The translations under genes and the position numbers were made by a program. Positions 1,296 to 48,770 of a stretch of 64,000 nucleotides of DNA are shown piece after piece (position 1 is the stretch's first letter; each line of letters begins with the position of its first letter). The notes under the pieces are model-generated. The model was not told the DNA's origin. It did not search any database and was given only the letters and a program-made list of their open reading frames with translations. Source of the stretch: Heterodontus francisci (lineage: Eukaryota); NCBI RefSeq assembly GCF_036365525.1, contig NC_090375.1, forward strand, positions 188,303,233 to 188,367,232, written 5' to 3'.

Positions 1296-2149
1296 CAGGA
1301 CTACTTCACATCTGCTGTCAATGCTGTTCTATAGGCAGCTGTGTTTGACAAAGCCAGCTTTATATACCCTTTCCCCAAGCTTGAAGCTGAAAAGCAAATG
1401 CTCAATCTGGCGAAGACTCGCTCAAAACTGGACCAGCCTCTTCTCCTGCTCCTTACGAGAGTCGATCTGAGTCAGAATACCAGCCACGCTTGTGACTCAG
1501 ACACAAGTCTCTCTGAAGTACCAGCATGCTCCTGGGATAAAACCGTGATTAATTGAGCTAACTATAAGTATCCATCAGAAATAATTACATGCAACATTTT
1601 AGAACTGTTTGATCACCAGGAGGTCTTCATTTTATGGGAAGTCGAGATTAAAAACTCTCTGCATACAAGTGGCTTTCTATCCAACTGCGGTATTTATCTC
1701 TTTTTTTCACTTGTGTAACCATTTAACAAAAGGAAAAAAGAAAAATATCTGTTGAAAAATTTTCCAACAGATGTAAAATGCATTCAGTATGATACACAAA
1801 TGTCCAAGAGCATAGAAATGGAAAGGAAATCAGATAAACAATAGCGAGAACTATAAATCCCTTTCAAATAAGAATCCCTTTGTTCGAAGAACATCACAGC
1901 CCCATCTGTGTTAATTTGCTTTCAGTGTTATGAATCCCTTCAAAGACAGCAATGTGGAGTTTGCTTATTTGCTTTTGTTTTATTGGATGGAAGGTTGTGA
2001 TTATAAACAACGTAAATGAATCCATCAAAGAAAACCAGTTGAGTGTTGGAACCCAAACAATGTTAACTCCCAGGTGAGTTCATTTGCCTCTGGGACAAAT
2101 TGATTGAACTAAACATGGCCTCTCTGCATGCACATTTACCCACGTGCTC

Positions 2150-2460
2150 ATATCTTATACCTGCGTTCAAATAATTCTGGCCTCTTGAGCATCCCTGATT
2201 TAAATCGCTTCACCATTGGTGACCATGCCTTCAGCTGCCTAGGCCATTAATTCTGCAATTCCCTCCCTAAACCTCTCTCCCTCTCTTTCCTCATTTAAGA
2301 CACTCCTTAAAAGTTACCTCTTTGACTAAGCTTTTGACCGTCGGCCCTATTATCACCTTTTGTGGATCGGTGCCAAATTTTGCTTTATTACGCTCTTGTG
2401 ACGCACCTAGGGATGATTTATTTTGTTAAAGGCGCTATATAAATACAGGTTGATGTTGTT
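2150..2460 (+). mobile_element. L2-type LINE 3' end
   Basis: gccttcagctgcctaggcc...attccctccctaaacctc...aaaggcgctatataaatacaggttgatgttgtt tail; reverse complement of the coding L2 copies at 31113 and 54379. Confidence 0.75.
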
Positions 2461-2621
2461 ATGCTGGTTTACTGTTGCTAGGTGTCGTCAGATAATTGAT
2501 GCCTTGAATACTTGGGGCTGAGAAAGAGAAGAGACTCTGAAAATGTAGTCATTTGCCAACAATACTAACTTGCATTTCTGTAACTCCTTTAATACAAAAG
2601 GTGCTCAAGGCATTTCATAAC

Positions 2622-3190
2622 AAGAAAGAAGTTGCATTTATATAACACCGTTCACAACCTCAAGACATCCGAAAATGCTTCATAGCCAATGACGTATATT
2701 TTAAGTGCAGTTACTGATGTAAAATTATAATTGTGACAACATTTCAAAAGCACTTCATTGGCCGTAAAATACTTTGGGAGGTTGTAAAAGGCACTATATA
2801 AATCCAAGTTCTTTCTTTTCTTTTATATGGGTAGGTGTGGCAACCAATTTGAGCACAGCAAGGCATCATAAAAAGCAATGATGTAAATAACCAGATATTC
2901 TGTTCTTGATGATATTAGTTGAGGGATAAATGTTGGCTAAGACACTGAAAGAATTCCTGTGTTTGTCTTCAAACAGTGCGATGGGATCTTTTACATCCAT
3001 GTGAACTAGCAAACAGGGCCTCCAACGTAATACCTCATCCTAAAGGTAGCACCTCTGACAGTGCAGTGCACCATTAGTACTGCATTGAAGTATCAGACTA
3101 GATTAAATTCCAAGTCTCTGGAGTGGGCCTTTAATCCATGGCCTTCATGACTCAAGTTTGACAGTGCTACCACTGAGCCAACATTCACAC
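2622..3190 (-). mobile_element. SacSINE1/Deu-type SINE (with a short inverted fragment at ~2728-2822)
   Basis: Contains Deu-like core (gggatcttttacatcc, gcacctctgacagtgcag) and tRNA-like head (gtgctaccactgagcca). Confidence 0.7.
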
Positions 3191-3319
3191 TGGGAATAAT
3201 TAGAACACTGGATATCAACCAATTGATTCTGGCCTTAGCACATCCCCGATTTCCTTTGTTCCACCATTGGTGGTCATGCCTTCAGCTGCCTAAGCCCTAA
3301 GCTCTGGAATTGCTCCCTA

Positions 3320-3654
3320 GGGGTGGCACAGTGGTTAGCACCGCAGCCTCACAGCTCCAGCAACCCGTGTTCAATTCTGGGTAGTGTCTGTGCGGAGTTT
3401 GCAAGTTCTCCTTAAGACCGCGTGGGTTTTCGCGGGGTGCTCCAGTTTTCTCCCAAGCCAAAGACTTGCAGGTTGATAGGTAAATTGGCCATTATAAATT
3501 GCCCCTAGTATAGGTAGGTGGTAGGGGAAGGTGGGGACGTGGTAGGAATATGGGATTAGTGTAGGATTAGTATAAATGGGTGGTTGATGGTCAGCACAGA
3601 CTCAGTGGGCCGAAGGGCCTGTTTCAGTGCTGTATCTCTAAATAAATAAATAAA
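3320..3654 (+). mobile_element. HE1-type tRNA-derived V-SINE
   Basis: A-box tggcacagtggttagc, B-box-like gttcaattc, V-domain-like gtctgtgcggagtttgca...gtgggttt, CR1-like tail gggccgaagggcctgtttcagtgctgt and (TAAA)n end. Confidence 0.85.
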
Positions 3655-3706
3655 ACTCTCTTCCTCACTTTCATCCTTCAAAAACTACCTCTTTGGCCAA
3701 ACTTTG

Positions 3707-4150
3707 AGAGTGTGCAGAGGAGATTTACCAGAATGATTCCAGGGATGGGGGATTTTAGTTATAAGGTTAGGTTGGAAAAGCTGGGGTTGTTCTCCCTGGA
3801 GCAAAGGGTGTTGAGGGGAGATTTGATAGAGGATAGAGAGATAGAGGTTATGACAGGCTTAGATAAGTTAGACAAGGAAAAACTGTTCCCATTAACTGAT
3901 GGTACAAGGACTAGGGGATACAGATTGAAGGTTTAGGGCAAGAAATGCGGGGGGTATGTGAAGAAAAACTTTTTTTACGCAGTGAATGGTAATGACCTGG
4001 AACTCGCTGCCCACGAGGATGGTGGAAGCAGAAACAGTCAATGATTTCAAAAAGAAATACATTTTCAGGGCTATGGGAAATTGAGACTGACTGGATTGCT
4101 CAGCAGTGAGCCAAATGGCCTCCATCTATGCCCTAAATGACTCTATGACC
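3707..4150 (+). mobile_element. CR1 LINE 3' fragment
   Basis: ORF 3712-3936 QRRFTRMIPGM..Y..RLEKLGLFSLEQR.LRGDLIE is the CR1 ORF2 C-terminus, followed by the CR1 3' UTR. Confidence 0.9.
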
Positions 4151-4559
4151 TATCTTAATATCTCTTTATGAGGCTCAGCGGCAAATCTTTGTGTGTTAAT
4201 GCTCCTGTGAAGCACCTTGGGACATTTTACTATGTTAAAGGTGCTATATAAATGCAAATTGTTGAAAGAAGTGGTCTCGGCAATGAGAAGGATTTGGAGT
4301 TTCAAGCTCAGTTCAGGGCCGAAGATGACACTGAGGTTAAAATAATGCTGTTCTGGGCTGTACCATTTGATGAGGGGGATACACTATCATTCTTCTCCCA
4401 GAATAGCTAACCAAGTTTAGAGTGTGAATAGCTGAGCAATGGAGATCAGGAAGGTCCAATGCTTGATGCCCAGTCTGGTATTGATTATTGAGGCTCACAC
4501 ATGAATAACCATGACTTGGACACCAAACCAAAGGACAACCAGCAAGGAGTCCACACCTG

Positions 4560-4795
4560 AAGGACAGAAAAACCTGAGATTTTACAGCACCTTTCACAAC
4601 CCCAGGACATCCCAAAGCAGTTTAAAGTCAAATCTCCGGAGTAATAAGAGTGCTACCAACTGACCACAGCTGACACTTGCAGTGCAAAAGACTTGCAGTT
4701 CGACAGCACTTTCAAGACTACAGGACATCCCAAAGCACTTTACAGCCAATGAAGTGCTTTTGAAGTGTAGTCACTGTTGTAATGTAAGAAAATGA
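4560..4795 (-). mobile_element. SacSINE1/Deu-type SINE fragments
   Basis: Two copies of caggacatcccaaagca plus tttacagccaatgaagtgcttttgaagtgtagtcactgttg. Confidence 0.6.
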
Positions 4796-5949
4796 GAGGG
4801 AATAAAGATTGTCTCTCACAACTTGAAAACGTGCTCTGGGCATTCCTGTAGGCATCGAGAATTATAAGCCAAGATGTGTTCAATGTGTTCTTCAGCAGCG
4901 GAAGGAATGCACAGCCCCCCAGGTAACTCGCCCATCCAACTGTTCACACACCAGCTGCTCCACATGTGGTAGAGTCTGCAGTTTGTGCATTGGACTCACT
5001 ACCCATGTTAGAACTCAGTGAATTGGAGTGGAAGCAAGACATCCTCACTCCTGAGGGGCTGCCTAAGAAGAAGAAGAAAACATTATTGTAAACAATCCCA
5101 TTCTTTTGGAAAATCTTCCAATATTTGTGTGAGATCAGGACATTATGTTAAGTTGTGCCAGAGTACTTCTTATAGACTAAGCTAAAACAATTATCCAAGT
5201 GAGTGCACTCTCCAGTATGGTGGACTGGAGGCATTCCTTCATTCTGGTGGAGCATTCTAAAATGTGGGCTACATCTCTATAGGAGGTGATCCCTCAATCA
5301 GAGGTGAGATAGGGAAATGAGAAATATTGATTCTTTTGCCAGATGTTCAATAGTTTAATAGCAGATATTTTGATTTTTACATGAAAGTGCTACATTGCTG
5401 TATTGTAACCATGGAGGCTGAACAACATTTATTTTAATTTAAAAAGAATTGATTGTGACCTATGCAGTCTTTAACACAGTAGATATGGCATTCACTCTAT
5501 AACTCTGACCTCATTTACTTTGGGAGATCGAATTCAGCTTGATCTGTCGATCTGAAATTAATCTGTTCTTCCCAGCAGGTGCTCTCCACTCAGTCCTACG
5601 TGGTGGGCAAAATTGCATTGGGAGATCTCTCTGTCACTTTATTTTTTGTTTCATTGAAGTCTTGCGTGGTTAACAACAATGTTGAACAACATGGGATTAT
5701 CATAGTTCTACAGAATAATCATTGCACAATCTTGGCATTCAAAAAAAGTGGACCATAAAAGCTACACCACAGTTAGTCACATGTATGCTTTTTGGCAATT
5801 TCCTCTGTTACAGGTCTTCCTGTGTCACATACCATCCTGAACAGTGTCTGGGCCTCAGAAGAAAAAAAAGGAAGACTTGCATTTATATGGCATGCTTCAC
5901 AACCACAGAACAGCAAGTGAAGCATTTTTCAAGTGTAGTCAGTGTGATT

Positions 5950-6387: not shown

Positions 6388-7800
6388 GGGCATGGTTACA
6401 GCACAGAAGGAGGCCATTCGACACTTCGTGTCTGTGCCATCTCTCCGCCAGAGCAACTCAGCTCGTCCCACTCCCCTGCCCTTTCCCTGTAGCCCGCAAA
6501 TGTTTTGTCTTCAGGTGCTTATCCAATTCCCTTTTGAAAGCCATGATTGAATCTTCCTCTGCTACACTCTCAGGCAGTGCATTCTAGATCCTGACCACTT
6601 GCTGCATAAAAAGGTTTTCCCTCATGTTGCTGTTGCTTTTTTTGCCAATCACCTTAAATCAGTGTGTCTGCTTCTTGACTGTTCGGCCAATGGGAACAGC
6701 TTCTCTGGACTGAATTTTTCATGCCCATTGGCAAAGAGCTGGGAGGTGGGAGGGCTAGCAAAATGACGGGGAAGGCATGGGAGGGGAGCTGGATGTCTTC
6801 CCACCACATGCTATATTGCCAATGGTGGGAAAGTTGATTTGCCCATGTTGGGAGGACCCTCTGCTGCCTGGGGAGACCACCCAGTGAGTGGAGGGGGCCT
6901 ACTTTATGGGTACTCCATGGCCTGTGGCGGGGCCCCCCGGCTACCCTTGCAGCAATGGCACTGCTGGTGCTCCACGACCACCGTCCTCTGATCACCCCAG
7001 CTTCCCCCAACTTACCTCAACTCTCTTCCAGGGTGTCCCAACATTGAGGTGCCCTCTCGCTGGAGCTGCAGCCTCAGCAATGGCCACTGCTAGTGTGGCA
7101 CTGCTGAGGTTGCTGAGCTGCTGGCCCTCTGATTGGGCCAGCATTTCTTGGGGGTGGGCCACCGCCCTTAACTGGCTGCCGCCAACAATATGCCACCCGA
7201 TGCCCTGCCACCTGCCAAAGCAGGGTCGCTTCCTGCTTTTGGCCCCAGCAGCGGGACTTGCAGCAAAATTCAGCCCTGTCTATCTACTCTGCCTCGACCG
7301 CTCATGATTTTGAACACCTCTATCAAATCTCCTCTCAACCTTTTTTCTAAGGAGAACAACCCCTGCTTCTCCAATCTACCCACATAACTGAAGTCCCTTA
7401 TCCCTGGAACCATTCTCATCAATCTTTTCTGCACCCTCTCTAAAGCCTTCATGTTCTTCCTAAAGTGAGGTGCCCAGAATTGGACACAATACTCTAGTTG
7501 AGGCCGAACCAGTGTTTTATAAAGGTTTGTCATAGCTTCCTTGCTTTTGTACTCTGTGCCTCTATTTATAAAACCCAGGAACCCATATGCCTTTTTAACC
7601 ATTTTCTCAACCTGCCCTGCCACTTTCAACCATTTGTGCACATAAAGCCCCCGTACTCTCTGTTCCCGCACCCGCTTTAGAATCGTACCTTGTGTTTTAT
7701 ATTGCCTCTCCTCACTCTTCCTACCAAAGTGTATCACTTCATACTTCTCTGCATTAAATTTCATCTGCCTTGTGTTCACCCATCCCACCAGCCTGTCTAT
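6388..7800 (-). mobile_element. CR1 LINE 3' part, split by a MITE
   Basis: ORF 7270-7788 QMKFNAEKYEVIHFG...LYKTLVRPQLEYCVQFWAPHFRK; CR1 3' UTR at 6388-6700. Confidence 0.9.
6708..7275. mobile_element. PIF/Harbinger-type MITE inserted in CR1
   Basis: TIRs gactgaattttt...aaaattcagcc with 3-bp TSD CTG (6705-6707 and 7276-7278). Removing it rejoins the CR1 sequence. Confidence 0.75.
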
Positions 7801-7824
7801 GCAACTCTTCCTTTCTTTCTTGCA

Positions 7825-9330
7825 AGGTAGGAAACACGACAGCCTATTAGTGTACAGAAAGTTCCCACAAACAGCAATGGGATAAAGATCAGATAATCTG
7901 TTTTTGTGATGTTGATTGAGGAATAAAGATTGGTCAGGACACTGGGGAGAACGCCCCAGCTCTTCTTCAAAATAATGCCATGGGATTTTTTATGTCCACT
8001 TGAGAGTGCAGACAGGGCCTTGGTTCACTTTGACAAGGTCCCACATGGGAGACTTATCAAGAAAGCAAATGCACATGGGATACAGGGAAACTTGATAAGG
8101 TGGATTCAAAATTGGCTTAGCTGTAGGAGACAGAGAGAGTGATGACAGACGACTGTTTTAGTAACTGGAAGCCGGTGTCCAGTGGTGTACCACAGGGATC
8201 TGTGCTGGGTCCCCTATATAAACGACATAGATGACTATGTGGGGGGGTAGGATCAGTATGTTCGTGGATGACACAAAGATTGGCCGAGTGGTTAACAGTG
8301 AGGTTGAGTGTCTTGGGTTACAGGAAGATATAGACGGGATGGTCAAATGGGCAGAAAAGTGGCAGATGGAATTTAACCCTGAAAAGTGTGAGGTGATACA
8401 CTTTGGAAGGAGTAATGTGACATGGAAGTATTCAATGAATGGCCTGACACTGGGAAGTTCCGAGGAACAAAGGGACCTTGCATGTTTGTCCATAGATCCC
8501 TGAAGGCAGAAGCGCAGATAAATAGGGTGGTGAAAAAGGCATATGGGACACTTGCATTTATCAATCAAGGCATAGACTACAAAAGCAGGGAGGTCATGTT
8601 GGAGTTGTATAGAACTTTGGTAAGGCCACAGCTGGAGTACTGTGTGCAACTCTGGTTGCCACATTATAGGAAGGATGTGATTGCACTGGAGGGGGTGCAG
8701 AGGCGATTCACCAGGATGGTGCCTGGGATGGAACATTTAAGCTATGAAGAGAGGTTGGATAGGCTTGGGTTGTTTTCACTGGAGCAGAGAAGACTGAGGG
8801 GTGACCTGATCGAGGTGTACAAGATTATGAGGGGCATGGACAGGGTGGATAGGGAGCAGCTTAGTTGAAGGGTCAGTTACGAGGGGTCACAAGTTTAAGG
8901 TGAGGGGCAGGAGGTTTAAGGGGAATTTCAGGAATTCTATATAACCGTTTTTTACCCAGAGGGTGGTGACAGTCTGGAATGCACTGCCTGGGAGGGTGGT
9001 AGAGGCGGGTTGCCTCACATCCTTTAAAAAGTACCTGGATGAGCACTTGGCACGTCATAACATTTAAGGCTATGGGCCAAGTGCTGGCAAATGGGATTAG
9101 GTAGACAGGTCAGGTATCTTTAATGCATCAGTGCAGACTCGATGGGCCTCTTCTGCACTGTATTATTCTGTGATTCTATGATTCACTGTATCATCCAAAA
9201 GACAGCACCTCTGACAGTGCAGCACTCCCTCAGTACCAGACTTGATTTTTGTACTCAAGTGCTGGATGGGGATTTAAATCCACAATGTTCAAAGTCAGAG
9301 GCGAGTGCTACTAACTGAGCCACAGCTGAT
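7825..9330 (-). mobile_element. SacSINE1/Deu-type SINE split by a CR1 insertion
   Basis: SINE pieces at 7825-8026 and 9184-9330 are collinear with the copy at 21968-22440. Confidence 0.7.
8027..9183 (+). mobile_element. CR1 LINE ORF2 fragment (RT and C-terminus), frameshifted
   Basis: FDKVPHGRL, GVPQGSVLGP, MFVDDTK, WQMEFNPEKC, LVRPQLEYCVQ; ends in an (ATTCT)-type CR1 tail. Confidence 0.95.
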
Positions 9331-23982: not shown

Positions 23983-25479
23983 TTAGCATGGTAGCATATA
24001 AAACACAATGTTGTACTTAACCAACCTGTCCCTTTAAGAACAGAGAATCTAATTGCCATAAATCTGAAGTCACTCGGGTCAAGTTGTTGCTTGGGTAGGG
24101 AACATTGCAAATTATAAAATGCCTGTCAGATTGGAAGTTCACTGCATCAAGTAACTGGCTTTATCCCCTTATTTTTTTAACAAACTGCTTCACCTGTAAC
24201 ATTTGGTGTGTGATGTTTGTCCTGATGTACCATGTTTACTACACTACTAGTGGATCACCTGTGGGAATGCTCACAGTAAGTCTGAGGATGCTCTGCTTTA
24301 TCTGGGTAAAAAAACTTTGCCATGCATCACAGGATGTAAACACATGTTCCCTTAAGGCTCGGAGGTGCAGTTGATCTGAATTTTTGAAAACAGCCCTGGG
24401 GTAAGTTACTGGTCGTGCTGCGAATCAGAACCCTGGCTTTGATTCATTGACTGGTAAAGTAAAGAAGTTGGAACACCCTGATAATACGTTCACAGCATCA
24501 GGTAATTGATCCCCAGAAAAACTGGTTGTGAAGGCCTGAGGTCTACGATACGCCCAAGCCACCCAGCACTTTCCGAGTAAGCATAAAGGAAGCAAGGAGA
24601 CAAGATGGAAACTGTCCACTGTGTTTATTAGACATGGCTCAGTGGATAACACCCTTTCCCCGGGATAGCAGGTTTTGAGGTCAAGCTCCACTCCTGCATC
24701 TTCAGCACCCTCTGCCCAAATTACTCCCTGCTTACTTCAATGGAGAGTAATATCAGGTGGGGAGCAAAACCAGCATGGGATATACAAAAGTGTTACAGAA
24801 ATTTGTGACAGCAGGCCAGGGGCAAGATTTTTTTGGGCAGATCTCCTGTGGCATTGCTCACAACAAGGGACTAGATTGGACAGCTCCTTCAAAGAACCAG
24901 CACAGGATTTTGTCTGGTGCTTTGCTACCTTGCTCTGTCTTTCGTTATTGTCCTTGGTTCTTTTATCAATTTTTTCTTCCATGGTTTGCGTTTCCTGGTT
25001 ATTTGGCTTCATTCTTTCTTCTTTTCGCAAAATGAAAAATGGATCTGGGAGCCAATCTTTGAAGGAACAGCAGCACCATCTAGTGTCGGGAGGACTGAAA
25101 AGTAAACACAGTGCCACTCACACCACTCCCCCCGCCATCCCGCACTGCTGCCTTTATCAAACAGATAGCCATGTCCCATTTCCACAGGTGTCAATCACAA
25201 AGGTGCTGCTTAAACCATCTCAAGCACCCCAAATATTTTAGGCAGTTCAAGTAGCTGTTCACAACTTGTTAAAGTATAACTTCTTGAGAATACTGGTTTT
25301 TTTCTATTTCCCTGCCTTGAAAGATTATTGCAAGAAGGAAACAGCATGAAAAATGCTTAAAATTAGGTCAGTACTGAAAGGAATTCAGGGAAAAAGTGAT
25401 CTCCTGGACTATTGCCTAGGGAGAGTCAGAGAGAAATCTCCCCAGATGGTGTTTGTGGCACAATGTTGGGCATAGTCTC

Positions 25480-25815
25480 ATCCCTCCCTATTCCTGGAAA
25501 CTCCTTCTGCCCTACAATCCTCTGAAATTGCTGCGTTCATCAAATTCTGGCCTTGTGTGCGTCCCTGATTTCCTTTGCTCCGCCATTGGCCCCTTCAGCT
25601 GCCTAGGCCCATAAGCTCAGCAATTCCCTTCCTAAGCCTTTCCATCACTTATGCTTCCTTTTAAGATGCTCCTTAAAACCTACCTCTTTGACCAATTTTG
25701 GTCGTCTGTCCTAATATTTCTTAATGTGGTTTGCTGTCAAATTTTGTCTGATAACATTCCTGCGAAGTGACTTGTGACATTTTACTGCGTCAAAGATGTT
25801 ATATAAATGCAGGTT
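25480..25815 (+). mobile_element. L2 3' end
   Basis: ccttcagctgcctaggccc...cttaaaacctacctctttgacc...atataaatgcagg. Confidence 0.75.
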
Positions 25816-26429
25816 CTCAGCCTAACGTTGCTGTTGTATTGGGTGAAGGAAGAGGACATGTTGACATCCAGAAAGAGGGTAACTTGTGTCCCTCCCATTG
25901 CACTACTGCCACTCCTGCAAGGCTGTGGCTTATCCGTCCCACTCATGTGTGGGAGAGCAGTCACAGGAGCTGAGTGACACCTTGAAAGCCCTTATCTTTC
26001 GGTTCATCAGTCTCTTCAGGTTGGACCCCAGGGTCTGAATGGTAGCTGTTTGACCTTCCACCAAAGCTGCAAAGTCTGGTAACATAGACACCGGACTCCT
26101 CTTGTAAGGCTTTGGCAACAATGTCCACTGGAAGAGGCCACAATCTCCAGAGTAGACTGCAGTGCAGCAATGCTGTGTAAGAGGTTTGGAATGGGAATTC
26201 AAGATAGTTTACTGTGCCCTTGTGATGAGGAGTGAACAATGTGATGCGGGGGGGGGGGGGGGGGGGGGAATTGTTCGGATTGCTGTGGGAGGTGGGTGGA
26301 AAGGACTCTTACCAGGTATTGTGCAGAGAGATGGGGAGTGAGCCCTTGCTGCTCTGTGAGACCATTGAGGGGTTTGATGCTCAGGAAAGGTGCTAGGGGG
26401 TTGGGGGAGGTGATGGTCCTGAAGCTAAC

Positions 26430-26690
26430 TGTTGTGTGATTGCCTTTCAGAGTAATGTACCTTTAAGATCTTAGTATGCTAATGACCCAAGTACCAGGAT
26501 ATAGTCATGTGACTACATGCTTGTCCCACTCTGTAACTGTAACACCAAGAAGCAAGACCTGCAAATAGATAGCTCTGTACTGTGTATAGTTGTTAGTTGT
26601 TTAATAAATCTGTTTGAGATCTTCAACTACCTGAGCTCCACGCATCTCACTTATGGTGCATCAGACAACATAAAAAAGCTTCTCATTGCA
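26430..26690 (+). repeat. 5' LTR
   Basis: TGTTGTG...ATTGCA with internal AATAAA; about 22 substitutions versus the 3' LTR by manual alignment, no indels seen. Confidence 0.95.
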
Positions 26691-26705
26691 TGGTGGCAAT
26701 GGTGG
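26691..26705 (+). promoter_or_regulatory. Primer binding site, tRNA-Leu-like
   Basis: TGGTGGCAATGGTGG immediately after the LTR, versus TGGTGGCAGCGGTGG (complement of a tRNA-Leu 3' end including CCA, as recalled). Confidence 0.75.
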
Positions 26706-27427
26706 TGAGAAGAAAAAAATACAAGTTTTGACCACAGGAAAACAGCTTTAAAAACCAGCTACAGCTGGAAGTGGGAAAGTTAAAGAAAAATACTGCCCCA
26801 ACAGGGAAAGAAGAAAACCCCTTCATCTGCAGACAGAGCTCTGAACAACAGGTTACAGATCAATCACTGTGATCAGGTGAGTCAGTTTGCCATCGGTAGA
26901 GAAATCCCAGTTAAAAAAAGAAAAGCCTTTGAAGTCCTTAAAAAATTGATTTTTTTTCTGTCAAAGGCTCCCTGGGAGAGTAAAAAATACAGGGAAGACC
27001 CAATCCCTTTCTTAGGCTGATCGTGACGGACACCATTACAGGAGGCGTCCGACAACACAAAGCGCAGGAATCCTTCATTCATGTAGCTTGCAGCTAGAGC
27101 TATAAATAGAAACCATTAAATCAATGGAAGGCTCTAGAGCCTTCACTCACTCAGTCAGAGTTTAAAAAAAACTCGTAAAACCACTCAACCATGAAAAATT
27201 GCTGCTTGAAAGGCTGTATAAACAAACTAGCAGAGAGAAAAAAAAGCACTTGAAATACCTGTTGCACAGCTGTATAAACAGAACAGGCTTAGTGCTGGAA
27301 GCTAGACAAACAGACAATCTGCTGCTATCAATCAAATCAACCAAGACTGTTTCTTAATGAGGAAACAAGTACAGAGTCTTAAAGTAAGTTCTTAAAGCAA
27401 GCTTTAAAGCAAAAGAACAGCAGAAAG

Positions 27428-28110
27428 TTGGATTCCAATTTTCCCAGCATGAACTGGCAAGCCTTGGATATCCTATCCGAGTTCAAACTGTTCAAACAGA
27501 GAATGCAGTTATGCTTGACAGACCAAGTGCTGGAAGCAGAGAAGCAAACTAAAAATAATGATAGCGATTGGAAATGAGGGATTGCCAAGAGGCAATACGT
27601 ATGGATTATCTGAAGAGGACCAGAAAGATCCCACAAAGATATGGAAAGTGTTGGAAGATCAGCTCTGATTGAGAGTGAAATTTCAAATTCACCACCTGGT
27701 GCCCTATAGGCAACAACCACAGGAATCAATAGACCAGTTCATTAGTAGATGCCGAAGTAAGGCTAACGAATACGATTTCATAGAAGCTGAGCTGTCAGAC
27801 CGAATAATGCAGTTGGTGATTGTATCAACACCCATCAAAGCATTTCAGAAAGACCTCTTGGGGGAAAAAGAAAGGACAGCATTGATGCACTACTGGAAGA
27901 TGGCAGGAAGTATGAAACCATTGCAGCTAGACAACAGCATCTGCAAGCACTTGGTGCAGCCAACAGTATTGGATCCATAACCAGGTTGAAAAAGGCAAGC
28001 AAGCTGTGTGGTAAATGTGGTTGCTCCCACTCATGGTGAAGTTGTCTTGCATTTCGAGACCTGTGCAAGACATGCAGTGTAAAAGGACACTGGACCCGCC
28101 TATGCATGAA
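27428..28110 (+). pseudogene. gag: Degenerate gag (capsid-like region and two zinc knuckles)
   Basis: FPSMNWQALDILSEFKLFKQRMQL...KIWKVLEDQL*LRVKF...QQPQESIDQFISRCRSKA (MHR-like); CGKCGCSHSW*SC and CKTCSVKGHWTRLC at 28007-28105. Frameshifts and stops are present. Confidence 0.85.
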
Positions 28111-28339
28111 TTCCAGCTCAAAAGACAAAGCCAGAAGTCACGGTCGGATGCAAACAAACAGACAACAGGGCAACAGCAGCAAGGAAAGTGCAGAGACCTG
28201 TATAAACACAAGCCAATACATGAGGTCCACAGCAAAACAGACCAGAGACAAGACTTGGGTGGGAGCAAGTCTCGGTTAGAAGACGAGCAAGCATTCCACA
28301 TTGTGAACCTGACACATCACGTTGATGAAGTCCAACAAG

Positions 28340-28660
28340 CTTTCACCACCATCAACATCACGTGCCCAAGGAAAGCTGGCAAACATACACACAAGGTCAA
28401 GATTGACACTGGCGCTAGTGCAAATATCATACTGGTTCAAATCCTCAAAGATAGTGCCAGAATCGTTGGAGATCAATGATATAACTGACAACTGCCAAGT
28501 TATCTGCATACAATGGGTCACTCATCCCATGCAGTGGCACATTAACAATGCAATCCAGCTATGGCAAGTCAGCTTGGAAACCACAAACGTTCTACCTAGT
28601 AGACATGAGCAGACTGCCAGTGTGTAAGGACCTCAACATCATAACAATCCATGACAGTAT
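28340..28660 (+). pseudogene. Degenerate retroviral-type aspartic protease
   Basis: KVKIDTGASANII (DTG at 28405-28413); after a frameshift, KLSAYNGSLIPCSGTLTM...PQTFYLVD...LPVCKDLNIITIH. Confidence 0.85.
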
Positions 28661-28709
28661 TCCCAAAGGGAAATCTCCAAGGACCAGAATCTGCTCACAG
28701 ACTCTGACC

Positions 28710-29140
28710 AGCATCAAACGGCGCAGCCTGGGAACCCAGCAACAGCACAACGAGGCCGCGCCTTCACTTCTGCTGTCTAGAGAATCGCCAGCACCACAAC
28801 GAGCCAGAACGGACAGGTATCTCCATGAAACTAAGTACTCTTCCCCCAACAAATCCTTGACCTTGAGCCCCAAGTCTTCAGACACAGAGGATGAGGAGAG
28901 GCAAAGAACATGCAATGTCCTGAAGAGGCAGAGGAGGAATGAGTTGAAGCATTATCTGTTGGCTCTTTGAGATGATGTGCTGGAACTTTCCAAGAATGAT
29001 AAAACCTCAAAAGTAGTCTGCTTGAGAAAAGCAACAGAGTATGTTAGCAGGCTAAAGGCAGAGCAACAGAAACTGAAAGCAGAGAGGGCGAAATTGCAGA
29101 AAGAACAGCAACAGATGAGACGTAAACTCCTTGAGCAAGA
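28710..29140 (+). pseudogene. myc: Transduced Myc-family C-terminus (Myc box IV, NLS-like segment, bHLH-leucine zipper) with one internal stop
   Basis: IKRRSLGTQQQHNEAAPS (cf. LKRCHVSTHQHNYAAPPS); [90 protein letters not shown] (cf. c-Myc [60 protein letters not shown]...KLEQ). TGA at 28968 sits where Arg (CGA) is expected. Confidence 0.93.
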
Positions 29141-29278
29141 GTTGTCAAACCACCAAGACGACCTATGGACATTTGAGCCTCTATTCTTGTGAGTTTTATA
29201 ATCTCTAGCCATGTGTAAATAATTTTGATGTTATCTAATGTTATGTATTTTCACCATTAGCATACGAGACTTATCTTT

Positions 29279-29291
29279 GGAAAGAAGGGGA
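29279..29291 (+). promoter_or_regulatory. Polypurine tract
   Basis: GGAAAGAAGGGGA directly upstream of the 3' LTR. Confidence 0.9.
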
Positions 29292-29552
29292 TGTTGTGTG
29301 ATTGCCTTTAAGAGTAATGTATCTTTAAGATATTAGTATGCTAATGAGCCAAGTACCAGGATGTAGTCATGTGACTACATGCTCATCCCACTCTGTAACT
29401 GTAACACCAAGAGGCAGGACCTGCAAATAGAAAACTCTGTACTCTATAAAGTTGTTAGCTGTTTAATAAACCTGTTTGAGATCTTCAATTACCTGAACTC
29501 CACGCATCTCATTTATGTTGCATCAGACAACATAAAGAAGCTTCTCATTTCA
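29292..29552 (+). repeat. 3' LTR
   Basis: TGTTGTG...ATTTCA, 261 bp, followed by ctgac (5' flank ctaac). Confidence 0.95.
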
Positions 29553-30379
29553 CTGACCATCTTAGCCACCTCTCTCCAGGCTTGTTAAACATACATTTTT
29601 GGAATCTTCCTGCCATTAATGGGGAGGGAGAACTTTCATCTTCCACCTCTACTCTTTCACCATAAACTCCAGTGAGGTTTCAGAAAATCTGGGGATGTCT
29701 GCAACAGTCTCTGACCACATTCCTTTTTGCAGCAATGAAACAGCAAAACCAACCAGCTGGAAGTGCAGTATCCCTTTCAGCTTGATTTAAATGTGATTAA
29801 TTGTTCCAAACTGTGCATTTTGTGATACATATATAATTTCAATAATTTAACCTGGATTTTATCTTAGCTCTAAAAAAAACAAGCAATCATTGTAAGGTTT
29901 TGATGTGTGGATTAACAAGGTAAATTTCTAAATTAAACATAATGCAAAAGATTTCATGTAGATATACCATAAATAGCACTACGATTCATTCATTAATCCT
30001 GCTTGGATTGGGACTGCTACTGGGAGCTTGCACAAGAGGGGGTGACAAATTGAGTGCAGCTGCAGCTCTTAAAGGGGCTGCAGCTGCCACTTAAAGGGAA
30101 GCTTGCTTTTTTTTGGCAGTGATGGGATCACAGGCAGCAAACTGATTACTGGAAAGCTGTGGTACAATGCCGACAAAGAACCTGCAGCATTGGCTGAGCT
30201 TGTTTCTTCTTCAAGAAGTATGCCAAAGGAGTTTACTCCTTTTTTGCTGGGACTGAAGGGCATTCTCCTGACAGGAAGTCTGCCATATTAAGTGGGAGGA
30301 GGTGGTGGCACACAGGATCAATGCATATATAAATATAACAAATACTTTTATTTCTATATATATATATATATATGTAAAT

Positions 30380-31112: not shown

Positions 31113-31810
31113 CAGCAACAACATATTTATATTCATATAGCACCTTTAACATAACAAAACGTTCCAAGGCGCTTCACAGGAGAGTCATAAAGCAAACTAG
31201 ACATCAAGTCACTTAGGCGATTTTAAGGCAGATGACCAAAAAGCTTGGTCAAAGAGGTAGATTTTAAAGGGTGTCTTGAAGTGAGAAAGAGGGGTAGAGA
31301 GTTGGAGAGATTTAGGAAGAGAATTCCAGAACCCAGGGCCCAGACAGCCGACTGCACAGCCACCAATGGTGCAGCAATAAAAATCAGGGATGTTCAAGTA
31401 GCCAGAATTAGATGAGCACAGATATCACAAAGGGTTGTGGGACTGGAGGAGATTACAGAGATAGGGAGAGGCCAGAGCATGGAGGGATTTGAAAATAAGG
31501 CTGAGAATTTTAAAATCGAGGCGGTGATTGAATGGGAACCAATGTAGCTCAGCGAGAAGAGGGGAGATGGGTGAATGGGACTTGGTGCTAGTAAGGACAC
31601 GAGCAGCAGAGTTTTGGATGACCTCAAGTTTACAGAGGGTTGAATGTGGGAGGCCAGCCAGGGCTGTGTTGGAATAGTCAAGTCTAAAAGTAACAAAAGC
31701 ATGAATGAGGGTTTCAGCAGCAGATGAGCTGAGATATGGGGGTTGGGGGAAGGGGGAAGTTGGACAATGTTACGGCGGTGGGAATAAGTGGTCTTCGTGA
31801 TGGCGTGGTT
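31113..31810 (-). mobile_element. L2 LINE 3' fragment
   Basis: Minus-strand L2 C-terminal motifs (GGCAVGCLGPGFWNSLPKSL...FKIYLFDQAF) with a caacaacatatttat tail. Confidence 0.85.
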
Positions 31811-33450: not shown

Positions 33451-34480
33451 GATGGTTGTGGTTGTTGGAGGTCAATTATCTCAGCTCCAGGACATCACTG
33501 CAGGAGTTCCTCAGGGTAGTGTCCTAGGCCCAACCATCTTCAGCTGCTTCATCAATGACCTTCCTTCAATCATAAGGTTAGAAGTGGGGATGTTCGCTGA
33601 TGATTGCACAATGTTCAGCACCATTCATGACTCCTCAGATACTGAAGCAGTCTGTGTAGAAATGCAGCAAGACCTGGACAATATCCAGCCTTCAGCTGAT
33701 AAGTGGCAAGTAACATTCGCGCCACACAAGTGCCGGGCAATGACCATCTCCAACAAGAGAGAATCTAACCATCGCCCCTTGACCTTCAATGGCATTACCA
33801 TTGCTGAATCCCCCACTATCAACATCCTGGGGGTTACCATTGACAAGAAACTGAAATACCATGGCTACAAAAGCAGGTCAGAGTCTAGAAATCCTGTGAT
33901 GAGTAACTCACCTCCTGACTCCCCAAAGCCTGTCCACCATCTACAAGGCACAGGCCAGGAGTATGATGGAATACTCTCCACTTGCCTGGATGGGTGCATG
34001 TCCAACAACACTCAAGAAGCTCAACACCATCCAGGACAAAGCAGCCCATTTGATTGGCACTCCATCCACAAACATTTATTCCCTCCACCACCGACGTACA
34101 GTGGCAGCAGTGTGTCTCATCTACAAGATGTACTGCAGCAATGCACCAAGGCTCTTTAGAGAGCACCTTCCAAATCCGTGACCTATTACCTAGAAGGACA
34201 AGGGCAGCAGATGCATGGGAACACCACCACCTGCAAGTTCCCCTCCAAGCCACACACCATCCTGACTTGGAACTATATCGACATTCCTTCACTGTCGTCG
34301 GGTCAAAATCCTGGAACTCCCTTCCTAAAAGTACTGTGGGACTACCTACCCCACATGGACTGCAGTGGTTCTAGAAGGCAGCTTCTTCACCACCAGCTTC
34401 TCATGGACAATTAGGGATGGGCAGTAAATGCTGGCCTAGCCAGCGACCCCCACATCCCATGAAAGAATACAAAAGAAAAT
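33451..34480 (+). mobile_element. CR1-group LINE (second family), RT and 3' end
   Basis: ORF 33452-34159 GVPQGSVLGPTIFSCFINDL...MFADDCT...WQVTFAPHKC; then MMEYSPLAWM and the 3' tail. Confidence 0.95.
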
Positions 34481-47774: not shown

Positions 47775-48770
47775 GTTGGGACCCTTACTTTTCCTGATAT
47801 ATATTAATGACCGAGACCTTGGTGTACGAGGCACAATTTCAAAGTTTGCAGATGATATGAAACTTGGAAGCATTGTGAACTGTGAGGAGGATAGTGTAGA
47901 ACTTCAAAAGGACATAGACAAGTTGGTGGAATGGGCAGACGGGTGGCAGATGAAGTTCAATGCAGAAAAATGTAAAGTGATTCATTTTGGTAGGAAGAAC
48001 ATGGAGAGACTATAAAATAAAGGGTACAATTCTAAAAGGGGTGCAGGAGCAAATGGACCTGGGTGCATATGTGCATAAGTCATTGAAGGTGGCAACCAGG
48101 TTGAGAGAGCGGTTAATAAAGCATACAATATACAGTACAGGCTTTATTGTTAGGGGCATAGAGTACAAGAGCAAGGAAGTTATGTTGAACTTGTATAAAA
48201 CACAGGTTTGGCCTCAGCTGGAGTATTGCGTCCAGTTCTCGGCGCCGCACTTTAGGAAAGATGTGAGGGCATTGGAGAGAGTAAAGAAAAGATTCACGAG
48301 AATGGTTCCAGGGATGAGGAACTTCAGATATGAAGATAGATTGGAGAAGTTGGGACTGTTTTCCTTGGAGAAGAGAAGGTTGAGAGGTGATTTGATAGAA
48401 GTATTCAAAATCATGAGGGGTTTGGACAGAGTAGATAGAGAGAAACTGTTCTCACTCATGAAAGGATCGAGAACGAGAGGGCACAGATTTAAATTATTTG
48501 GTAAGAGAAGCAAAAGTGACATGAGGAAAAACCTTTTCACGCAGCAAGTGGTTAAGGTCTGGAATGCGCTGCCTGGGAGTATGGTGGAGGCAGGTTCAAT
48601 TGAAACATTTAAAAGGGAGTTAGACTGTTATATGAGAAGGAAGAATGTGCAGGGTTACGTGGAGAAGGTGGGAGAATGGAACTGAGTGAATTACTCCTCC
48701 AGAGAGGTGGTGCAGACACGATGGACCGAATGGCCTCCTTCTGCACTGTAACAATTCTTTGATTCTGTGA
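47775..48770 (+). mobile_element. CR1 LINE RT/C-terminal fragment
   Basis: LGPLLFLIYIND...SKFADDMKLG...WQMKFNAEKC; ORF 47987-48685 PQLEYCVQF...FTQQVVKVWNALP; CR1 3' tail. Confidence 0.95.

What the first reader, a model, noticed from the sequence alone, without database searches (positions are those of the whole stretch)
26430..29552. LTR retrotransposon that has transduced a myc-family bHLH-Zip region
Seen: a complete LTR-PBS-gag-protease-MYC-PPT-LTR unit with a TSD. The Myc segment lies strictly between protease and PPT and has no introns. Established: myc capture is classically known from acutely transforming retroviruses (avian MC29 gag-myc, FeLV-myc), which lose pol and need a helper. 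Here the carrier has Ty3/Gypsy Mag-like hallmarks: CX2CX3HX4C plus CX2CX4HX4C knuckles, LSAYNG protease motif, tRNA-Leu PBS and 5-bp TSD. Inference: a germline-integrated, helper-dependent retrotransposon family carrying a proto-oncogene DNA-binding domain in a shark. I am not aware of a description of it, but cannot search the literature.
Basis: partly seen in the sequence, partly recalled or inferred. Interest (0 to 1): 0.95.

Follow-up and report, generated by a model that had tools for sequence, protein, structure and literature searches.

The report
Shark retrotransposon family carrying captured myc
A jumping gene in a shark genome swapped most of its copying enzymes for a piece of a myc cancer-gene relative and then spread to some thousands of places, apparently keeping the myc piece useful while losing the residue that reads myc's normal DNA target.

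Summary
Confirmed and extended. The 3.1-kb unit is one decayed copy of a large non-autonomous Ty3/Gypsy family (523 exact motif hits; roughly 2,300 copies estimated). The donor is mych, the fourth Myc paralogue (87.5% nt identity versus 65.6% to the c-myc-like gene). A longer form of the family carries the mych exon 2-exon 3 splice junction exactly. So spliced mRNA replaced RT, RNase H and the integrase core, in frame, with microhomology at both switch points. Pol-bearing relatives with the same LTR type, PBS and PPT exist in the genome. In 30 copies, changes shared between copies are depleted of amino-acid changes in the Myc frame only (62 N/53 S, null share 0.69, P<0.002), pointing to selection on the Myc protein while the family was moving. 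It is not an MC29-like oncogene: Myc boxes I and II were never captured, and the E-box-reading glutamate survives in only about 5% of copies. Best guess: a Max-binding, non-activating (dominant-negative-like) cargo; untested. LTR-mediated gene capture is a known process; I found no report of this family in the paper searches (Repbase/Dfam not checkable).

The parts
26425..26429 (+). Left target-site duplication (5 bp)
   Evidence: matches 29553-29557 at 4 of 5
26430..26690 (+). 5' LTR, 261 nt
   Evidence: 91.6% identical to the 3' LTR
26691..26708 (+). Primer-binding site, tRNA-Leu type
27428..28183 (+). gag, broken by frameshifts and stops; two Cys-His knuckles at about 28007-28045 and 28064-28105
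   Evidence: tblastn to P0074, P0076, P0094; translation; weak zf-CCHC hits below cut-off
28184..28655 (+). Linker and aspartic protease (DTG near 28405, LSAYNG near 28500), one frameshift; its end runs in frame into the mych piece
28656..29126 (+). Captured mych exon-3 segment (host residues about 201-357: Myc box IV region and bHLH-Zip); HLH about 28908-29057; stop at 28968-28970; basic-region His and Glu positions replaced
   Evidence: 87.5% nt identity over 471 nt to G000:C16 mych, locus L039; PF00010
29127..29176 (+). Remnant of the pol C-terminal tail (RVVKPP-like end), out of frame with myc in this short form
   Evidence: translation; same tail in pol-bearing copies L095, L097, L103
29279..29291 (+). 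Polypurine tract
   Evidence: same in other copies
29292..29552 (+). 3' LTR, 261 nt
29553..29557 (+). Right target-site duplication

Best explanation
SHOWN: a Ty3/Gypsy element with one gag-pol frame took up spliced mych mRNA. The mych piece (host residues about 121-360) replaced pol from the start of RT to the end of the integrase core, in frame at both ends. Later deletions gave shorter forms, the window's among them, and the family spread to thousands of loci. INFERRED (strong): capture was a double template switch during reverse transcription at short shared sequences, and pol-bearing relatives supplied RT and integrase in trans. INFERRED (moderate): the Gag-protease-Myc fusion was translated and the Myc part was under purifying selection in the copies that were transposing. 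INFERRED (weak, about 0.4 taken alone): the product lacks Myc boxes I and II and mostly the E-box-reading glutamate but keeps the HLH-zipper. It would bind Max and act as a non-activating, dominant-negative-like Myc, or as a defused nuclear-targeting and dimerising module, that helped the element spread or made it tolerable to the germ line. Copies seen today are decaying neutrally.
For: Spliced exon junction in 9 of 10 long copies fetched at the junction print (exon-2 match in all 10) and 94 exact genome hits, control 0. Seven identical bases shared by pol and mych at the 5' switch, a split match at the 3' switch. Pol-type continuation: 329 exact hits, control 0; 13 of 20 and 3 of 20 sampled loci run into RT. 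Pol and long-form LTRs are intermixed in a 100/100 clade. Selection, 30 short copies: singletons 186 N/48 S (share 0.79, null 0.76); shared alleles 62/53 (0.54, null 0.69, 0 of 600 simulations); same without CpG-creating alleles; no deficit in the two other frames or in the UTR/LTR control; the protease frame behaves alike. Carriers of shared silent alleles are relatives in non-myc parts (P 0.011), carriers of shared replacements are not (P 0.61). Glu kept in 3 of 40 fetched copies and 5 of the first 100 listed of 523 hits (counted by eye); His and Glu are invariant in 9 of 9 outgroup mych proteins. MYC with these two residues mutated keeps Max binding, loses E-box recognition and is dominant-negative on over-expression (10.1101/2020.05.04.076190, passages).
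Against: Pairwise omega among short copies is only 0.78 against a neutral range of 0.78-1.14. Gag shows no significant deficit in the same shared-allele test (P 0.22-0.41). Changes common to the short form are 8 N/2 S, 5 of 9 at invariant residues, which looks like relaxation or remodelling on that stem, not conservation. The basic-region changes sit on very short internal branches and may be founder effects; enrichment is P 0.009 for the short form but 0.09 for the long (post hoc). A factor that acts in trans benefits all copies, so selection on individual elements is not easy to explain. No protein, binding or expression data. Copies were the best-scoring hits, not a random draw.
Confidence: 0.6

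Rival explanations
1. Passenger: the mych piece was captured by accident and rode along in a compact non-autonomous element. Any constraint only kept the polyprotein open, folded and harmless; the loss of the E-box residue is detoxification or drift, and the Myc part did nothing for the element.
For: Non-autonomous LTR retrocopies retrotranspose again without a cargo function (PMC5131818, passages). Star-like tree, few stem changes; 8 N/2 S on the short-form stem; borderline pairwise omega.
Against: Replacement deficit among shared alleles is as strong in myc as in protease and is frame-specific; 5', 3' and short-form junctions are all in frame; silent shared alleles are inherited.
Confidence: 0.3
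2. MC29-like oncogenic cargo: an active Gag-Myc fusion drove proliferation of germ cells carrying the element.
For: In-frame fusion to gag-protease, loss of pol, helper present; mych promotes cell survival in zebrafish (PMC2323570, passages); a small Glu-retaining fraction exists (42 hits).
Against: Capture starts at host residue 121, after Myc box I (42) and box II (100) (box motifs recalled); Glu kept in about 5% of copies.
Confidence: 0.07
3. Single later LINE-made myc retrocopy inside one LTR element, or an assembly chimera.
For: None found.
Against: Same junction at 252 exact loci, different TSDs, pol is replaced rather than interrupted, contigs of two other organisms bridge the junction.
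Confidence: 0.01

Closest known systems
LTR-mediated retrocopies in animals (Tan et al. 2016, PMC5131818; passages read)
   Same: mRNA replaces part of the internal ORF; short shared sequence at both switch points; chimera retrotransposes again as a non-autonomous element.
   Different: Those cases have one to a few insertion sites (18 sites for nine fly retrocopies); here thousands, with several derived subfamilies, an in-frame fusion and signs of selection during transposition.
Maize Bs1; HERV-K carrying FAM8A1 (as described in PMC5131818 and PMC13317346, passages)
   Same: Host gene pieces inside an LTR element that lost pol.
   Different: Bs1 has 1-5 copies and enzyme fragments; FAM8A1 copies are described as untranscribed pseudogenes. 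Here the cargo is a Myc-family DNA-binding and dimerisation domain.
Acutely transforming retroviruses MC29, FeLV-myc (recalled, not tested)
   Same: myc-family sequence fused in frame behind gag, pol lost, helper needed.
   Different: Carrier is an env-less Gypsy element, not a retrovirus; donor is mych; boxes I-II missing; E-box residues replaced; inherited in the germ line.
Myc-HEA (H359A/E363A) and E363-equivalent dominant-negative bHLH mutants (10.1101/2020.05.04.076190, passages)
   Same: The same two base-contacting positions are changed.
   Different: Engineered or disease alleles in full-length proteins; here different substitutions in a truncated, element-borne protein, with no functional test.
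Mag/SURL-like Gypsy elements; echinoderm K02A2.6-like gag-pol proteins
   Same: Two knuckles, single gag-pol frame; RT start 47-69% identical over the 91 hits.
   Different: Clade placement not tested against reference elements.

Membership tests
Ty3/Gypsy LTR retrotransposon | Paired TG...CA LTRs, short TSD, PBS, PPT | tested here: met
Ty3/Gypsy LTR retrotransposon | Order protease-RT-RNase H-integrase | tested here: met
   In partners RT follows protease and integrase precedes the PPT; the full order was seen only in database relatives such as P0074; no partner was read end to end
Ty3/Gypsy LTR retrotransposon | No env between pol and the 3' LTR | tested here: met
   In L095 and L103 the pol tail ends within about 150 nt of the PPT; 2 of 5 partner 3' ends could be examined this way
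Mag clade | Two Cys-His arrays in nucleocapsid | tested here: met
   feature from PMC2577118, passages; shared with Micropia/Mdg3, so not diagnostic
Mag clade | RT groups with Mag/SURL reference elements | not testable with these tools
   No named reference RTs available; nearest named proteins are echinoderm K02A2.6-like
LTR-mediated retrocopy (Tan 2016 type) | Spliced mRNA replaces internal ORF | tested here: met
LTR-mediated retrocopy (Tan 2016 type) | Short shared sequence at both switch points; no own poly(A) or TSD | tested here: met
   chance level of the shared sequence not simulated
LTR-mediated retrocopy (Tan 2016 type) | Secondary retrotransposition of the chimera | tested here: met
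Acutely transforming myc retrovirus | Retroviridae backbone, infectious with a helper | tested here: not met
   Gypsy-type RT, no env
Acutely transforming myc retrovirus | myc fused in frame to gag region, pol lost | tested here: met
Acutely transforming myc retrovirus | Transactivation boxes I-II and E-box contacts retained | tested here: not met
Acutely transforming myc retrovirus | Transforms cells | not testable with these tools
   no experiment possible

The most novel reading that the evidence does not exclude
A vertebrate germ-line retrotransposon captured a Myc-family gene and evolved it, under selection, into a Max-binding decoy that no longer reads E-boxes, using it as an accessory protein to manipulate the host Myc/Max network while amplifying to thousands of copies: the mirror image of retroviral oncogene capture.
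Probability: 0.35. Interest if true: 0.95.

Novelty: new variant of a known kind. Interest (0 to 1): 0.83.

Why it matters
Oncogene capture is textbook for infectious retroviruses, where it is a somatic dead end (recalled). Here the same kind of event happened in an env-less germ-line element and was a success. Donor gene, helper and several stages of the chimera all lie in one genome, so the order of events and the selection on the cargo can be measured directly. It asks how a host tolerates thousands of myc-like sequences and whether transposons carry transcription-factor decoys as accessory genes. Practically, six database gene models named 'myc-like' or 'N-myc-like' (P0001-P0004, P0006, P0008) are copies of this element and would be miscounted as a Myc expansion.

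Tried and rejected
Protein search for longer relatives of the protease-to-RT-start piece: none of 118 candidates passed; a search with the RT start worked instead. Expression: no RNA holder listed; the four runs laid are contigs, two only guessed to be RNA and one of unknown kind, so expression is neither shown nor excluded, and the absence of cover on the 3' flank says nothing about orthologous insertions. Earlier scan notes: three look-ups, nothing. Paper searches aimed at this family showed nothing on it in the listings: 20 of 36 listed; 20 of 230; 0; 0; 20 of 28; subscription papers, Repbase and Dfam were not searchable and no supplements were read. TSD survey: 12 of 20 short copies and 6 of 8 long copies were truncated, interrupted or ran beyond the fetched stretch; 4 of 5 partner copies lacked one LTR in the fetched pieces. 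L073 was fetched on the wrong side and is uninformative. Pairwise omega with a fixed transition weight (0.54-0.86) was set aside as uncalibrated. The copy tree had unsettled bootstrap and only one starred branch, so the order of the basic-region changes is not resolved. No complex prediction was run: Myc-Max is a solved pair and a pass would reflect that likeness. No absolute age is given because no rate was at hand. Only the best-scoring copies and short stretches could be fetched, so a full census is open.

Full report
OBSERVATION. The unit is as described. Two 261-nt LTRs (26430-26690, 29292-29552) differ at 22 sites, K2P 0.09, and are flanked by CTAAC/CTGAC. A PBS follows the 5' LTR; a motif for the matching tRNA end gave 117 genome hits, and 3 of 4 fetched were called tRNA-Leu. 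Gag and protease of the window align to residues 1 to about 440 of 1,360-1,390-aa gag-pol proteins. The segment after the protease hits Pfam HLH (E 8e-7) and PDB Myc (E 4e-18). This copy has frameshifts and stops, one inside the HLH at 28968-28970.

IT IS A LARGE FAMILY. A search of the 6.0-Gb genome G000 with 28400-29291 scored 40 places, all carrying protease-myc-PPT, the 39 others at 83-86% identity; 5,252 first-look candidates are not a copy number. A 24-nt basic-region motif has 523 exact hits, control 0. It matches 9 of my 40 fetched copies, which gives about 2,300 copies (1,400-4,800), probably low because my copies are best hits. Of 20 short copies fetched whole, 8 had both LTRs complete: K2P 0.06-0.14; 3 perfect and 1 near-perfect 5-bp TSD, all different; 3 without a readable TSD; 1 in tandem. 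One of 2 complete long copies and the 1 complete partner copy show a perfect TSD once the end of their slightly shorter LTR is set 4 nt back. Contigs of two other coded organisms (B, two studies; C, one) bridge the protease-myc junction, so the family is not confined to one species.

THE DONOR IS mych. A Myc_N search found three two-exon cellular genes, on C5, C3 and C16. The window segment 28656-29126 is 87.5% identical to the last exon of the C16 gene, against 65.6% over 212 nt to the C5 gene. The C16 protein equals P0005, labelled 'myelocytomatosis oncogene homolog' of the horn shark Heterodontus francisci; its nearest relatives carry the same name in other sharks and fishes. A protein tree puts the window sequence with the C16 gene (93/91) inside a starred clade of cartilaginous-fish mych, apart from the C5 and C3 genes. 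Mych is a separate Myc paralogue needed for cell survival in zebrafish (PMC2323570, passages).

CAPTURE WAS FROM SPLICED mRNA. Ten copies found by the Myc_N model are about 360-390 nt longer between protease and myc. They hold up to 191 nt from the end of mych exon 2 (all 10), joined to exon 3 exactly at the GT/AG splice sites (9 of 10 printed; 94 exact genome hits, control 0). Upstream they keep the protease tail and first residues of RT; in the 4 of 10 with the longest tails, myc runs on into the pol C-terminus. On a 1,388-aa relative the replaced part is about residues 500-1240: RT, RNase H, integrase zinc finger and core. At the 5' switch pol and mych share seven identical bases; at the 3' switch an overlap of about 19 nt matches both in part. 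Both joins are in frame. The window's short form lost the linker, the exon-2 part and the first 50 nt of exon 3 (252 exact junction hits). That join is in frame in 15 of 29 copies, the rest being shifted by indels within 260 nt. This fits the double template-switch model published for LTR-mediated retrocopies (PMC5131818, passages).

THE HELPER EXISTS. A pattern for the pol-type continuation has 329 exact hits, control 0. Of 20 loci fetched behind protease-tail hits, 13 go on into RT, 6 into mych and 1 was fetched on the wrong side. Of 20 loci with the protease closest to the window's, 17 go into mych and 3 into RT. LTRs of partner and long-form copies are intermixed in a 100/100 clade; short-form LTRs form their own 100/100 clade. 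The partner's RT is closest to marine invertebrate gag-pol proteins, several named from echinoderms; no env lies before the PPT in the two ends examined. Mobilisation in trans is inferred, not shown.

SELECTION ON THE CARGO. I compared 30 short copies, chosen by DNA likeness and not by open frame, with the cellular exon (157 codons; CpG sites and high-frequency sites masked, 357 of 471 positions used). Private changes are neutral: 186 N/48 S. Changes shared by two or more copies are 62 N/53 S, share 0.54 against 0.69 in context-aware simulations (0 of 600), also without CpG-creating alleles. The other two frames and the UTR/LTR control show no deficit; the protease frame does (50/34); gag does not (70/37, P 0.22). 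Shared silent alleles are carried by copies that are related in their non-myc parts (P 0.011), shared replacements are not (P 0.61); among alleles with a closely related carrier pair the count is 17 N/27 S. Stops recur between copies almost only at CpG-type codons, and 37 of 40 copies have a stop or frameshift in this segment, so decay came after insertion. Against: pairwise omega 0.78 lies at the edge of the neutral range 0.78-1.14, and the changes common to the short form are 8 N/2 S, 5 of 9 at invariant residues.

WHAT THE CARGO COULD DO. The capture begins at host residue 121, after Myc box I (42) and box II (100); the short form begins at 201 (box motifs recalled). The basic-region glutamate that reads the E-box is kept in 3 of 40 fetched copies and is Lys in 27. 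Among the first 100 listed of the 523 motif hits, 5 have the Glu codon, 93 Lys, 2 a stop (counted by eye); a Glu-specific 19-mer has 42 hits. The neighbouring His is kept in 3 of 30 short and 7 of 10 long copies. Both residues are invariant in 9 of 9 outgroup proteins; 2 of 9 element-side changes in the short form fall on the three base-contacting positions (P 0.009, post hoc; long form 1 of 5, P 0.09). Human MYC mutated at the two equivalent residues still binds Max, loses E-box recognition and is dominant-negative when over-expressed; the paper notes dominant-negative alleles at the same Glu in other bHLH proteins (10.1101/2020.05.04.076190, passages). So the product looks like a non-activating Max binder rather than an oncoprotein. 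This is inference; a founder effect or plain detoxification is not excluded.

COMPARISON AND NOVELTY. It works like retroviral transduction and is a member of the LTR-mediated retrocopy class, all tested features met. It is not an acutely transforming retrovirus. Published cases have few copies: 18 sites for nine fly retrocopies, Bs1 one to five (PMC5131818; PMC13317346, passages). New here: thousands of copies, a Myc-family cargo, staged subfamilies, donor and helper in the same genome, and a frame-specific selection signal with loss of the DNA-reading residue. Searches listed nothing on it; searches served for background. Repbase, Dfam and most subscription papers could not be checked, and no supplements were read.

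VERDICT. Real and well supported as a structure and a family (about 0.97); selected Myc cargo about 0.65-0.7; decoy function about 0.35-0.4. New variant of a known kind; interest 0.83.

Noticed in passing
P0001-P0004, P0006, P0008: Database gene models named 'myc-like' or 'N-myc-like' are copies of this element; several start in the protease or RT-start region.
   Followed up: partly
G000:C34:18727277-19001434 (L105): Tandem array with a period of about 3,050 nt, some 80 listed units carrying the tRNA-end motif; the one unit fetched is a tRNA-Leu(TAG) gene.
   Followed up: no
P0074-P0094: The helper's RT start is 59-69% identical to unnamed and echinoderm gag-pol proteins, and no shark-labelled protein is among the 91 hits; horizontal transfer is possible, untested.
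   Followed up: no
L001-L045: Short and long forms differ more in protease (pS 0.29) than in myc (pS 0.18), and short-form LTRs are a separate clade: the myc cassette may have moved onto a second helper lineage by recombination.
   Followed up: partly
L060:30-64: A PPT precedes the 5' LTR of this copy: a tandem element sharing an LTR.
   Followed up: no
L053:1-1050: A long tandem repeat is inserted in the gag region of one copy.
   Followed up: no
window 7273-7989, 33452-34156, 47981-48682: Long open stretches that read like LINE reverse-transcriptase remnants (recognised from memory, not scanned).
   Followed up: no
window 25471-25706 and 31234-31481: Two inverted repeat pairs (119 nt at 71%, 47 nt at 77%) on either side of the element; probably two opposed copies of a dispersed repeat.
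   Followed up: no
run X11, record 12, on window 28627-29287: One contig of organism B with very high depth and many indels spans protease end, myc and PPT; the kind of run is unknown.
   Followed up: no
   Followed up: no
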